From a virus (Duplodnaviria; Heunggongvirae; Uroviricota; Caudoviricetes): a stretch of 35,255 bases of DNA. A model generated the notes under the pieces. It was not told the origin of the DNA and ran no database searches. It worked only from the letters and a program-made list of their open reading frames with translations. Each line of letters starts with the position of its first letter. The first letter of the stretch is position 1. The stretch lies in the IMG/VR virus record IMGVR_UViG_2913147268_000009. One strand, written 5' to 3'. Made by a program: the position numbers and the translations under genes. Positions 17,136 to 17,343 of the stretch are shown piece by piece.

Positions 17136-17176
17136 AAAAACCCCGTTTGTTGGCTGCAAGCGGGGTTTTGTGTTTC
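17136..17176. terminator. Candidate intrinsic terminator between endolysin and Rz
   Basis: AAAAACCCCG-loop-CGGGGTTTT followed by a T-tract; flanked by A- and T-runs, so potentially bidirectional. Confidence 0.45.
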
Positions 17177-17205
17177 CTGACTCTGGAAAAGTCAAAGGAG
17201 AAAGT

Positions 17206-17343
17206 GTGTTTGATTTTAGCAAACTGATTCGGGAGATTCGAGTGATGGCTGAAAAATTATCCACCTGGAAGTTCATTCTTATCTGGCTGGTGTTTGTGAT
17301 TATGGCCTCCGGTTATTTCATCGGTCAGATACGCTGGTGGTGA
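17206..17343 (+). CDS. Small predicted membrane protein (45 aa) coupled to Rz
   Basis: RBS AAGGAG 5 nt before a GTG start; encodes ...MAEKLSTWKFILIWLVFVIMASGYFIGQIRWW; its stop TGA sits 1 nt before the Rz ATG. Below the ORF-track length cutoff. Confidence 0.3.
   Translation: MFDFSKLIREIRVMAEKLSTWKFILIWLVFVIMASGYFIGQIRWW

What the first reader, a model, noticed from the sequence alone, without database searches (positions are those of the whole stretch)
17136..17343. Terminator-like hairpin and a translationally coupled 45-aa membrane ORF between endolysin and Rz
A GC-rich hairpin with flanking A- and T-tracts (17136-17176) sits between R and Rz, where lambdoid lysis cassettes usually have no terminator. 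It is followed by a small ORF with a good RBS whose stop lies 1 nt before the Rz ATG. The ORF encodes a single hydrophobic helix and could be a lysis modulator such as an antiholin or a small membrane toxin.
Basis: seen in the sequence. Interest (0 to 1): 0.45.

Follow-up and report, generated by a model that had tools for sequence, protein, structure and literature searches.

The report
Mobile antisense-guarded small membrane gene cassette
The hairpin and the 45-codon gene are real and form one small mobile unit, found in the late operons of many temperate phages, that very probably also encodes an antisense RNA guarding the gene; its function is untested, and it looks more like a tightly silenced small membrane toxin than a dedicated lysis regulator.

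Summary
A 14-bp GC hairpin flanked by A- and T-runs lies at 17137-17169. An AGGAG Shine-Dalgarno site and a GTG start at 17206 open a 45-codon ORF, and its TGA stop ends 1 nt before the Rz ATG at 17345.

Hairpin and ORF are one ~215-bp cassette. It recurs in Enterobacterales and Pseudomonas phages next to spanins of three families, after endolysins of at least five families, and also between baseplate, tail-tip and head genes. The ORF is PHROG 6632 (unknown function) and is a real gene: substitutions in codons 19-43 run 138:53:268 by codon position, and residues ~23-42 form one transmembrane helix. The hairpin shows compensatory changes in 9 of 12 pairs.

Synonymous sites in codons 3-6, 10 and 12 are frozen. 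The opposite strand reads TGnTAnnnT (an extended -10 promoter) in 99 of 99 variants. It persists in distant relatives where the amino acid changes (AGC, ATC, ACC).

Best reading (inferred): a ~78-nt antisense RNA covers the start codon and Shine-Dalgarno site and ends at the same bidirectional terminator, giving a type I toxin-antitoxin-like module expressed only under late antitermination. An antiholin role is not supported. This prophage lacks holin and Q.

The parts
16513..17046 (+). Context: SAR-type GH24 endolysin R (177 aa). Not part of the cassette.
   Evidence: PF00959 at 3e-24 and phrog_7 endolysin. The N-terminal hydrophobic SAR-like segment is seen in the translation.
17123..17136 (-). 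A-rich run on the + strand, which is the U-tract (UUUUUACUUUUAUU) of the hairpin read as a minus-strand terminator. It marks the 5' edge of the conserved cassette.
   Evidence: A-run columns are invariant or nearly invariant in 33 diverse homologues, although the sequence further upstream differs. Sakai Sp15 shares R-proximal sequence up to ~17131 and then diverges.
17137..17169 (.). GC-rich hairpin (14 pairs, loop TGGCT), a bidirectional intrinsic-terminator-type stem.
   Evidence: RNAalifold gives 12 consensus pairs, 9 with compensatory double changes such as CCCCG/CGGGG, GCCCCG/CGGGGC and CTCCG/CGGAG. It is present in distant family members too.
17170..17177 (+). Remainder of the + strand U-tract (GUGUUUCC, after UUUU at 17166-17169).
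   Evidence: T columns are invariant or nearly invariant in alignment A7.
17178..17194 (.). Small second stem-loop (TGACT-ctggaaa-AGTCA) abutting the Shine-Dalgarno site.
   Evidence: The same position holds different complementary arms in relatives: CCTTG/CAAGG, CCATA/TATGG, CGTTA/TAACG, CCTG/CAGG, CCTAT/ATAGG. Occlusion of the SD is only weakly supported (paired probability 0.57 against 0.47 in controls).
17196..17200 (+). Shine-Dalgarno AGGAG for the small ORF, 5 nt before the GTG.
   Evidence: GGAGAA is conserved across homologues.
17206..17343 (+). 45-codon ORF (GTG start, TGA stop). It encodes an N-in single-pass inner-membrane protein of PHROG 6632. It is annotated as WP_000459345.1 in some RefSeq genomes and as CAH23245.1 in CP-1639.
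   Evidence: There are 73 clusters at 50% identity in 1.8 billion representatives. Fitch substitution counts for codons 19-43 are 138:53:268 by codon position. TM helix at residues ~23-42. The start is GTG in 80 and TTG in 19 of the 100 variants tallied, and never ATG.
17213..17221 (-). Inferred extended -10 promoter element TGCTAAAAT on the minus strand, inside codons 3-6.
   Evidence: TGnTAnnnT sits at this exact position in 99 of 99 unique cassette variants. The wobble sites beneath it have 0-1 changes, against ~11 elsewhere. It is kept in distant relatives where the amino acid changes: AGC Ser, ATC Ile, ACC Thr.
17236..17241 (-). Weak -35-like hexamer TCGAAT, 17 nt upstream of the inferred -10. 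It includes the complement of the invariant rare codon CGA (Arg12).
   Evidence: Arg12 is CGA in 100 of 100 variants, while Arg9 and Arg43 vary. Hexamer variants are all TCGnAn. It matches the consensus at only 3 of 6 positions.
17128..17206 (-). Predicted ~78-nt antisense RNA. It has a 5' single-stranded anti-SD, a small stem-loop and the terminator hairpin. Inferred, not observed.
   Evidence: It folds into two stem-loops at -21.9 kcal/mol, z = -3.5 against shuffles. The promoter and terminator evidence is given above. No Rfam family matches.
17231..17247 (+). Possible internal start: GGGAG (codons 9-10) followed 9 nt later by ATG14. It would give a 32-aa product.
   Evidence: Glu10 is GAG in 99 of 100 variants, codon 9 ends in G in 89 of 100, and Met14 is invariant among close relatives. 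A 32-aa form is annotated in some genomes (P0022, P0023). Unproven.
17345..17812 (+). Context: i-spanin Rz, with o-spanin Rz1 embedded at 17565-17750. The Rz ATG lies 1 nt after the small ORF's stop.
   Evidence: PF03245 at 6e-48 and PF06085 at 2e-20. The gap is 1 nt in 113 of 126 Rz-type loci.

Best explanation
The finding is one self-contained, horizontally mobile cassette of about 215 bp (window ~17130-17344). It sits, always co-oriented, inside late operons of temperate phages; several hosts are demonstrably lambdoid with a Q antiterminator (e.g. SEN34, SPN3UB).

Shown:
1. A conserved, covarying GC hairpin with U-tracts on both strands.
2. About 33 nt downstream, a small covarying stem-loop, a Shine-Dalgarno site and a weak GTG or TTG start.
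3. A real gene for a ~45-aa protein with a ~22-residue cytoplasmic N-terminus and one transmembrane helix. Its stop codon abuts the next gene's start (here Rz).
4. A second, nucleotide-level constraint on codons 3-18.

Inferred:
- Codons 3-6 double as an extended -10 promoter (TGnTAnnnT) on the opposite strand.
- That promoter makes a ~78-nt antisense RNA. It starts at about the ORF's start codon, is complementary to its Shine-Dalgarno site and leader, and stops at the same hairpin.

Proposed working:
- In a lysogen, or in any non-antiterminated state, rightward transcripts stop at the hairpin. The constitutive antisense RNA pairs with whatever reads through, blocking translation from the already weak start.
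- When Q-modified RNA polymerase transcribes the late operon, it ignores the terminator and floods the locus with sense RNA. The small membrane protein is then made, with the downstream gene translated directly behind it.

This is the layout of a type I toxin-antitoxin pair, or of phage P22 sar/ant, embedded in a late operon. The protein's activity is unknown. My best guess is a membrane-active, potentially harmful peptide that must be kept off until late. I do not think it is an obligatory part of the holin-endolysin-spanin pathway.
For: Real gene:
- PHROG 6632 at 1e-29.
- 80 close and remote proteins and 73 clusters at 50% identity.
- Substitutions in codons 19-43 run 138:53:268 by codon position.
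- The TM segment stays hydrophobic while its sequence varies.

One unit with the hairpin:
- The hairpin, a ~33-nt spacer, the SD and a GTG/TTG start are found in every diverse locus inspected.
- They are found in 6 of 7 remote relatives.
- The hairpin has compensatory changes in 9 of 12 pairs.

Mobile:
- Downstream partners include PF03245, DUF2514 and DUF2570/LysC spanins, sheath-initiator, a lambda J-like protein and the prohead protease.
- Upstream partners include GH24, GH19, M15_4 and GH108 endolysins (a further 138-aa class was not run against Pfam), the Apex spike, tail K and Ant.
- Among the close relatives the best long ORF called on each side lies on the cassette strand in 243 (upstream) and 221 (downstream) of 254 loci, most exceptions looking like spurious antisense calls.
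- Where it was checked, the host phage has a Q antiterminator (SEN34, SPN3UB).

Antisense promoter:
- Wobble changes on a tree are 1, 0, 0, 1, 0, 0 at codons 3, 4, 5, 6, 10 and 12. They are 5-12 at codons 7, 8, 11 and 13, and average 10.7 at codons 19-43.
- TGnTAnnnT lies at the same place in 99 of 99 variants, with variation only at the non-critical positions 3-5 of the hexamer.
- In remote relatives the residue changes Ser, Ile, Thr but the codon stays A-N-C and the preceding codon stays T-ending: TGCTAGAAT, TGATAAACT, TGATATACT, TGGTATAAT.
- The A-run upstream of the hairpin is conserved, giving a minus-strand U-tract.
- The predicted RNA folds as stem-loop plus terminator, z = -3.5.

Precedent (my own knowledge): P22 sar RNA covers the ant ribosome-binding site, and type I antitoxins Rdl, OrzO and Sok overlap the toxin's 5' leader.
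Against: - No transcript, transcription start or protein has been observed. No paper or Rfam family covers this locus.
- The -35 is poor (TCGnAn, 3 of 6).
- The frozen Glu10 GAG and invariant Met14 are not explained by the promoter. They point to an internal start instead.
- G-U against A-C pair counts in the hairpin, and the folding energies (+ strand -28.3, - strand -26.4 kcal/mol on average), do not single out the minus strand.
- One GC-rich remote relative (L282) has neither the motif nor a canonical hairpin.
- The strongly conserved N-terminal peptide could itself be the selected feature, with codon choice fixed for an unknown reason.
- Toxicity is pure inference.
- In the window itself the late promoter, Q and holin are missing, so nothing can be said about expression here.
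Confidence: 0.5

Rival explanations
1. Lysis-timing accessory (antiholin- or holin-like). The small membrane protein is made late from two starts, GTG1 giving 45 aa and ATG14 giving 32 aa, like the dual-start motifs of lambda S and phage 21 S. It would tune holin or spanin action. The hairpin would only be a Q-bypassed terminator or mRNA stabiliser.
For: - In most sampled loci the cassette sits between endolysin and i-spanin, and its stop abuts the spanin ATG.
- An internal GGAG + 9 nt + invariant ATG14 is conserved. AAGGAG is kept in remote relatives.
- 32-aa forms are annotated.
- A structured region lies upstream of the first start, reminiscent of lambda sdi (own knowledge).
- A second, unrelated small TM ORF family occupies the same R-Rz junction in Sakai prophages and can occur in tandem with this one.
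Against: - The same cassette lies far from lysis genes in lambdoid myoviruses whose own lysis cassette lacks it. It also lies in Pseudomonas tail-tip clusters, next to head genes, and between TA modules.
- It partners with three unrelated spanin families and at least five endolysin families, so a specific protein partner is unlikely.
- It matches no holin or lysis family.
- The periplasmic part is only ~3 residues.
- This reading does not explain the frozen codons 3-6 and 12.
Confidence: 0.2
2. Plain late-operon moron with no antisense RNA. The unit is a passenger gene plus an upstream terminator that lambdoid Q antitermination reads through. The frozen synonymous sites reflect sense-strand needs (translation initiation on a weak start, an internal start, mRNA stability) or a DNA site used in its mobility. 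The protein acts late, for example in superinfection exclusion or membrane conditioning.
For: - The position is variable but the orientation is always that of the late operon, and related phages lack the unit.
- No promoter for the ORF is detectable between hairpin and SD.
- The + strand U-tract is as good as or better than the minus one.
- Enteric hairpins fold slightly better on the + strand.
- AU-rich early codons are a known aid to initiation (own knowledge).
Against: - AU-richness does not explain an invariant C at the Ser/Ile/Thr wobble or an invariant rare CGA.
- The invariant and variable positions match the T1, A2, T6 and TG pattern of an extended -10 exactly.
- A conserved A-run upstream of the hairpin is not needed for a one-way terminator.
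Confidence: 0.25
3. Chance ORF and chance hairpin in a non-coding spacer.
For: Automatic annotation skips the ORF in most records. The number of terminator-like hits in the region is not above the shuffle expectation.
Against: Length, frame and hydrophobic pattern are conserved from Escherichia to Pseudomonas at 42-50% identity, with a coding-type substitution pattern. The hairpin covaries.
Confidence: 0.02

Closest known systems
Type I toxin-antitoxin loci with 5'-overlapping antisense RNA (ldr/rdl, zorO/orzO, hok/sok; prophage-borne examples such as B. subtilis bsrG/SR4 and txpA/ratA)
   Same: A small (<60 aa) hydrophobic single-helix protein. A weak, structured translation start. A short cis-antisense RNA (inferred here) complementary to the ribosome-binding region and ending at an intrinsic terminator. 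Location on prophages. One remote member sits among other TA modules.
   Different: Neither toxicity nor the RNA has been shown. The cassette has no evident sense promoter of its own and is always embedded co-directionally in a late operon. A terminator sits directly upstream of the 'toxin' gene, and that gene is translationally joined to the next phage gene. There is no sequence similarity to any known toxin family.
Phage P22 sar RNA / ant (also lambda OOP / cII)
   Same: A phage-encoded ~70-nt antisense RNA that covers the ribosome-binding site of a phage gene and holds it off until the right stage. The promoter lies inside or next to the target gene (own knowledge).
   Different: The location and the target differ (a regulator there, a membrane peptide here). 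No sequence relationship. The RNA here is only predicted.
Phage morons (lambda bor/lom, HK97 gp15)
   Same: An extra transcription-unit-sized insert between genes that are adjacent in related phages. It is bounded by a terminator, it is mosaic in distribution, and it often encodes a small membrane protein.
   Different: Classical morons have promoter-gene-terminator in that order and are expressed from the prophage. Here the terminator precedes the gene, and the only promoter-like element points the other way.
Dual-start holin/antiholin genes (lambda S105/S107, phage 21 S68/S71) with the sdi leader structure
   Same: A membrane protein in a lysis cassette, a structured leader, and two possible starts.
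   Different: One TM helix and almost no periplasmic part. The starts are 13 codons apart. There is no homology, and it is not confined to lysis cassettes.
Terminators inside Q-antiterminated lambdoid late operons
   Same: A strong intrinsic terminator that only antiterminated polymerase should pass. Host phages checked carry Q.
   Different: It travels with a specific small gene as a unit and looks bidirectional.

Membership tests
Intrinsic (Rho-independent) terminator | GC-rich stem-loop followed by a U-tract | tested here: met
   14-bp stem with 6 G-C pairs, followed by UUUUGUGUUU on the + strand and UUUUUACUUUUAUU on the - strand. 9 of 12 consensus pairs have compensatory changes.
Intrinsic (Rho-independent) terminator | Transcripts actually end there | not testable with these tools
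   This needs term-seq or Northern blots, with and without Q.
Type I toxin-antitoxin system | Small hydrophobic protein (<~60 aa) with a transmembrane helix | tested here: met
   45 aa. Kyte-Doolittle 2.13 over residues 24-42. The hydrophobic segment is kept across the family.
Type I toxin-antitoxin system | Cis- or trans-encoded antisense RNA pairing with the toxin mRNA | tested here: inconclusive
   A promoter-like TGnTAnnnT is fixed at wobble sites in 99 of 99 variants and in remote relatives, and there is a minus-strand terminator. No RNA was observed.
Type I toxin-antitoxin system | Protein is toxic when over-produced, and the RNA neutralises it | not testable with these tools
   An experiment is required.
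Type I toxin-antitoxin system | Homology to a described toxin family | tested here: not met
   No Pfam, NCBIfam, PADLOC or PDB match. The PHROG is of unknown function.
Holin / antiholin | Membrane protein encoded with the endolysin in the lysis cassette | tested here: not met
   This is true in the window, but the family also lies in baseplate, tail-tip and head clusters. SEN34's own lysis cassette lacks it.
Holin / antiholin | Match to a holin family, or a dual-start motif | tested here: inconclusive
   There is no holin family match. A conserved internal SD plus ATG14 exists, but its use is unproven.
Phage moron | Insert between genes that are adjacent in related phages | tested here: met
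   Qin rrrQ-rzpQ and SEN34 lysin-Rz overlap without it. The flanking gene families are many.
Phage moron | Own promoter upstream and terminator downstream of the gene; expressed in the lysogen | tested here: not met
   The terminator is upstream. No sense promoter was found in the 36 nt before the start. Expression is untested.
Known prophage sRNAs (AgvB, AsxR, STnc100, Pas, EcOnc) | Sequence or structure match, or the same genomic position | tested here: not met
   No Rfam hit on the cassette in the window or in 8 homologous loci. AgvB and AsxR lie at the PR' moron site. EcOnc10-12 lie downstream of Rz.

The most novel reading that the evidence does not exclude
A previously undescribed, widely mobile 'gated peptide' cassette. 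A bidirectional terminator, a promoter hidden in the first codons of the gene and a weak start together make a small membrane peptide producible only by antiterminated late transcription. The lysogen meanwhile constantly makes the matching antisense RNA. The peptide, or the RNA acting in trans, would give the phage a late-stage or prophage-maintenance function. Candidates are membrane depolarisation that sharpens lysis, exclusion of competitors, or prophage addiction. The cassette can be plugged into any late operon.
Probability: 0.3. Interest if true: 0.7.

Novelty: new variant of a known kind. Interest (0 to 1): 0.55.

Why it matters
The 298-bp spacer that carries the cassette finds a match in about 2,000 of 5,426 complete E. 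coli genomes (871 over at least 80% of its length), with up to seven matching places per genome. It occurs in Stx1, Stx2a and Stx2c phages and in ST131 prophages, and in Salmonella, Citrobacter, Enterobacter, Klebsiella, Yersinia, Pantoea, Edwardsiella and Pseudomonas phages. Most annotations skip it, and the only family it has (PHROG 6632) is of unknown function.

If the inferred antisense RNA exists, this is a new family of antisense-guarded small membrane proteins with an unusual design. The promoter would be written into the synonymous and variable positions of the gene's own first codons. The terminator would be shared between strands. Expression would be gated by late antitermination. 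It would also add a constitutive prophage sRNA to pathogenic E. coli.

The finding also gives a clean example of overlapping codes that can be tested with synonymous mutations. For lysis biology, it warns that small ORFs at the R-Rz junction are not necessarily lysis genes.

Tried and rejected
- **Known sRNA families.** Rfam at gathering threshold on the whole window, at E<=10 on 16900-17500, and on 8 homologous loci gave nothing on the cassette.
- **AgvB/AsxR anti-sRNAs.** They lie at the PR' moron site, not here.
- **Sakai Hfq-CRAC peaks EcOnc10-12.** They looked promising because they lie 5 kb from AgvB, but they map just downstream of Rz. Both Sakai prophages examined (Sp10 and Sp15) carry ant plus a different small ORF instead of this cassette.
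- **Storz-lab Pas sRNA preprint.** No element at this site.
- **Literature searches** for the peptide, accession, PHROG id and DNA strings returned nothing.
- **E. coli K-12.** Qin has no gap between rrrQ and rzpQ, and the Rac lysis region is deleted, so K-12 data sets cannot help.
- **Minus-strand sigma-70 promoter from the scan (17328-17299).** It is not conserved in Salmonella on reading alignment A1 and was dropped.
- **Occlusion of the SD by the small hairpin.** Only weakly above shuffled controls (0.57 against 0.47), so it is not claimed.
- **Pairing of codons 3-5 with codons 15-17 in the mRNA.** By eye the complementary arm is missing in the Salmonella-type sequences (codon tallies), so it was dropped; no formal covariation test was run.
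- **G-U against A-C asymmetry to decide the folding strand.** Inconclusive.
- **Homology between this family and the second small TM family (ECs_5741/ECs_1966).** hhalign probability 0.8%.
- **PDB, PADLOC and NCBIfam.** No matches.
- **A scan of viral contigs with the remote-member alignment** failed for lack of a conserved stretch.
- **Not attempted:** structure prediction, judged uninformative for a 45-aa helix.
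Full report
**1. The observation**

The sequence is as described.
- A 14-pair hairpin runs from A17137 to T17169, with 6 G-C pairs and the loop TGGCT.
- It is preceded by aataaaagtAAAAA and followed by TTTTGTGTTTC.
- The pattern scan ranks it as the strongest terminator-like site between 15.5 and 19 kb.
- That scan finds 5 such sites where shuffles give 3.5 +/- 1.6, so the hairpin is not significant by count alone.
- Downstream lie AGGAG (17196-17200), GTG (17206), a 45-codon frame, TGA (17341-17343), one base, and then the ATG of Rz at 17345.
- The neighbours are a GH24 SAR-type endolysin (16513-17046) and Rz/Rz1 (PF03245, PF06085).
- Residues ~23-42 of the small protein form a clear hydrophobic helix (mean Kyte-Doolittle score 2.13). 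The first 22 residues carry five positive charges, so the topology is N-in and only about 3 residues lie outside.

**2. The ORF is a real gene**

- It matches PHROG 6632 (45-residue profile, unknown function) at 1e-29.
- It has no match in Pfam, NCBIfam, PADLOC or the PDB.
- Some RefSeq genomes annotate it as WP_000459345.1, and phage CP-1639 annotates it as CAH23245.1. Most records leave the spacer empty.
- Homologues of the same length occur in Salmonella, E. fergusonii, E. albertii, Enterobacter, Citrobacter, Klebsiella, Edwardsiella, Yersinia, Sodalis, Brenneria, Pantoea, Providencia and Pseudomonas. Identity falls as low as 42-50%.
- An exhaustive profile search finds 73 clusters at 50% identity, all of ~45-55 aa.
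- Across 66 distinct coding sequences, parsimony counts for codons 19-43 are 138, 53 and 268 changes at codon positions 1, 2 and 3. That is the pattern of a translated, selected frame.

**3. Hairpin and ORF are one mobile unit**

In every diverse locus inspected the ORF is preceded by the same architecture:
- an A-run;
- a GC hairpin;
- a T-run;
- a ~33-nt spacer holding a second small stem-loop;
- GGAGAA;
- a GTG or TTG start.

Sequence identity to the window begins at the A-run and ends at the stop codon. RNAalifold on 33 sequences recovers the hairpin with 12 pairs, 9 of which show compensatory double changes. The small second stem also changes both arms together (TGACT/AGTCA, CCTTG/CAAGG, CCATA/TATGG, CGTTA/TAACG, CCTG/CAGG, CCTAT/ATAGG).

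The surroundings differ widely.
- Downstream genes: i-spanins of three Pfam families (PF03245, DUF2514, DUF2570/LysC), the baseplate sheath-initiator, a lambda-J-like protein, small Pseudomonas ORFs between tail genes K and I, and a prohead protease.
- Upstream genes: endolysins of families GH24, GH19, Peptidase_M15_4 and GH108, plus a fifth, unassigned 138-aa class; also the Apex spike, tail K and an Ant antirepressor.
- One remote member stands alone between ParE, RelB and HicB modules next to a terminase.
- In the close relatives the flanking genes lie on the same strand as the unit.
- Where I checked, the host phage is lambdoid with a Q antiterminator. That includes the myovirus SEN34, whose own holin-lysin-Rz cassette lacks the unit while the unit sits 17 kb away among baseplate genes.
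- Related cassettes without any insert exist (Qin, SEN34).

This is the behaviour of a moron-like passenger, not of a fixed lysis-cassette component.

**4. A second code in the first 18 codons**

Among the 100 cassette variants tallied the start is GTG in 80, TTG in 19 and never ATG (one has a mutated start, GTA); one of the 100 is a false hit and was dropped later.

Synonymous sites vary freely from codon 19 onward. For example, Phe23 is TTC 51 and TTT 48, and Gly36 uses four codons. Several early codons, however, are frozen:
- Asp3 is GAT in 93 and GAC in 2.
- Phe4 is TTT in 75 and TTC in 0.
- Ile4 is ATT in 20 and ATC in 0.
- Ser5 is AGC in 99, with one false hit excluded.
- Lys6 is AAA in 94 and AAG in 6.
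- Glu10 is GAG in 99 and GAA in 1.
- Arg12 is the rare CGA in 100 of 100, whereas Arg9 and Arg43 use 3-5 codons.
- Met14 is invariant.

I built a tree from codons 19-43 only. On it, wobble changes are 1, 0, 0, 1, 0, 0 at codons 3, 4, 5, 6, 10 and 12. They are 6, 7, 5 and 12 at codons 7, 8, 11 and 13, and average 10.7 at codons 19-43.

Read on the opposite strand, codons 3-6 spell TGCTAAAAT.
- All 99 variants have TGnTAnnnT at exactly this place.
- The variants are TGCTAAAAT (74), TGCTAATAT (20), TGCTAAGAT (3) and TGCTATAGT (2).
- Variation is therefore confined to hexamer positions 3-5, and T1, A2, T6 and the upstream TG are invariant.
- From established knowledge of sigma-70 promoters, this is the conservation pattern of an extended -10 element.

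The most telling point comes from remote relatives (23-48% identity).
- The residue at 'codon 5' changes from Ser to Ile to Thr, yet the codon remains A-N-C (AGC, ATC, ACC).
- The preceding codon still ends in T.
- The resulting elements are TGCTAGAAT, TGATAAACT, TGATATACT, TGGTATAAT and TGCTAAAAT.
- Nucleotides are kept where the amino acid is not.
- Only one GC-rich relative (L282) lacks the motif, and it also lacks the canonical hairpin.

Seventeen bases upstream of this element lies TCGnAn, which contains the complement of the invariant CGA. It is a poor -35 with 3 of 6 matches.

A transcript started ~7 nt downstream of this -10 would begin at about 17206. It would run antisense through the start codon, Shine-Dalgarno site and small stem-loop. 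It would meet the hairpin, which on this strand is followed by UUUUUACUUUUAUU, the conserved A-run of the + strand. The predicted ~78-nt RNA folds into a 5' single strand, a small stem-loop and the terminator (-21.9 kcal/mol, z = -3.5).

The promoter does not explain the frozen GAG10 or the invariant ATG14. Codons 9-10 (CGG GAG, AGG GAG, AAG GAG) form a Shine-Dalgarno-like GGAG 9 nt before ATG14, in remote relatives too. A 32-aa product from an internal start is therefore possible, and some genomes annotate that form.

**5. How it most likely works**

Shown: a conserved terminator-type hairpin with U-tracts on both strands; a weak and partly structured start; a real single-pass membrane protein gene abutting the next gene; nucleotide-level selection on codons 3-18; and mobility among phage late operons, Q-dependent where I checked.

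Inferred:
- The hairpin stops ordinary rightward transcription.
- It also terminates a short constitutive antisense RNA made from the promoter hidden in codons 3-6.
- The RNA masks the ribosome-binding site of any read-through message.
- Q-modified polymerase overrides the terminator late in infection and out-titrates the RNA, so that the peptide and the coupled downstream gene are made.

This is the layout of a type I toxin-antitoxin locus, or of P22 sar/ant, built into a late operon. Several stacked 'off' devices (a terminator, a non-ATG start, a structured leader and an antisense RNA) suggest a product that is harmful if made early. That step is a guess.

I put 0.5 on this composite reading. 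The gene being real is about 0.95 and the unit being mobile about 0.9.

**6. Rivals**

- A lysis-timing accessory with dual starts (0.2). Its commonest position and the internal start favour it. The non-lysis contexts, the many unrelated partners and the frozen codons 3-6 and 12 argue against it.
- A plain Q-gated moron without antisense RNA (0.25). This remains possible until an RNA is seen. It leaves unexplained the A-N-C codon, the CGA codon and the conserved upstream A-run.
- Chance. This is excluded by the comparative data.

**7. Comparison with the known**

- No Rfam family matches, and none of the described prophage sRNAs (AgvB, AsxR, STnc100, Pas, EcOnc) occupies this site.
- Neither the peptide nor the DNA appears in the searchable literature.
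- The family meets the size and hydrophobicity criterion of type I toxins. The antisense criterion rests on sequence inference only, and toxicity is untested.
- It fails the test of obligatory linkage to lysis genes expected of a holin or antiholin.
- It meets the 'insert between adjacent genes' criterion for morons. It fails the promoter-gene-terminator order.

I therefore file it as a new variant of a known kind: an antisense-guarded small membrane protein or moron.

**8. The window itself**

The window is a lambdoid prophage. It carries:
- integrase at 1-1143;
- CI-like repressor at 5655-6410;
- O at 7285-8304;
- Nu1 at 19009;
- terminase, portal and tape measure at 29590-32163.

Between the replication genes and R lie an inverse-autotransporter fragment, an antirestriction gene, an IS fragment and scrambled short ORFs. 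No holin or Q is seen. Collinearity with ST131 prophages at 100% identity starts only at about 16306, inside the ydfR-like gene, and no complete E. coli genome has the whole 14.0-18.6 kb arrangement. Here the R-cassette-Rz segment is therefore a remnant cut off from its late promoter. This does not affect the comparative conclusions, but it means the sense gene is probably silent in this genome.

Noticed in passing
window 14538-14685 and 17849-17996: A ~148-bp sequence just downstream of Rz is repeated 3.3 kb upstream in direct orientation. Its core is 97.8% identical to the Sakai Sp10 site of the Hfq-CRAC peak EcOnc11 (homologous peaks EcOnc10 and EcOnc12; Tree et al. 2014, Table S2). A candidate Hfq-bound RNA locus is therefore present twice here.
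   Followed up: partly
window ~9000-16306: The Q / late-promoter / holin region of this prophage is replaced by unrelated DNA: an inverse-autotransporter (invasin-like) gene at 9252-10901, an antirestriction gene at 12369-12956 (-) and an IS3-type transposase fragment at 14644-14985. Identity to ST131 prophages begins at ~16306 inside the ydfR-like gene, and no complete E. coli genome shows this arrangement.
   Followed up: partly
window 15027-15221 (-) and 15712-15906 (+): Two ORFs on opposite strands share the peptide IRKKKCRDCGNAITHNT. The + copy is a 64-aa zinc-ribbon protein with a C-terminal hydrophobic helix. This suggests a partial inverted duplication.
   Followed up: no
L126 3749-3895 (-), L277 5125-5271, L171 2638-2769: A second, unrelated family of small single-helix ORFs (Sakai ECs_5741/ECs_1966, MISDKLITLVKSLCVLVGISF...) also sits immediately before Rz. 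It follows an Ant antirepressor in Sakai Sp10 and Sp15, and it lies in tandem after a variant of the present ORF in other phages. The R-Rz junction is a hot spot for small membrane ORFs.
   Followed up: partly
window 17047-17131: The ~85 nt between the endolysin stop and the cassette (…CTGAAAAATGA…GGATAACACGAAATCCTG…) is shared with ant-type Sakai prophages and is partly conserved in Salmonella phages with a different endolysin. It belongs to neither the endolysin gene nor the cassette. Its function is unknown.
   Followed up: no
L015 2238-2348 (Salmonella phage SPN3UB): An unannotated 36-codon ORF (MSKRDVSALCFLMAAAVAISGNDGWGWLIFAGIIIL) starts in an ATGA overlap with the endolysin stop, upstream of the cassette. 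It is another small hydrophobic ORF in the same spacer.
   Followed up: no
L278/L279 2001-2135: A remote family member (P0086) stands alone with ~600-nt flanks between ParE/TraY-like, YafQ/RelB and HicB modules beside a terminase. It still has the upstream hairpin and the minus-strand TGCTAGAAT.
   Followed up: partly
window 34858-34974 (-), 32799-32874 (+), 33600-33778 (+): Rfam hits above the gathering score: the ALIL pseudoknot (IS3-family frameshift signal), naRNA4 (REP-type element) and AS-pc02. They mark an IS and repeat elements at the right end of the window.
   Followed up: no
L002 (phage CP-1639): In this defective Stx1 prophage the holin and most of R are deleted, but the R 3' remnant, the cassette and Rz are retained directly after stx1B.
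   Followed up: no
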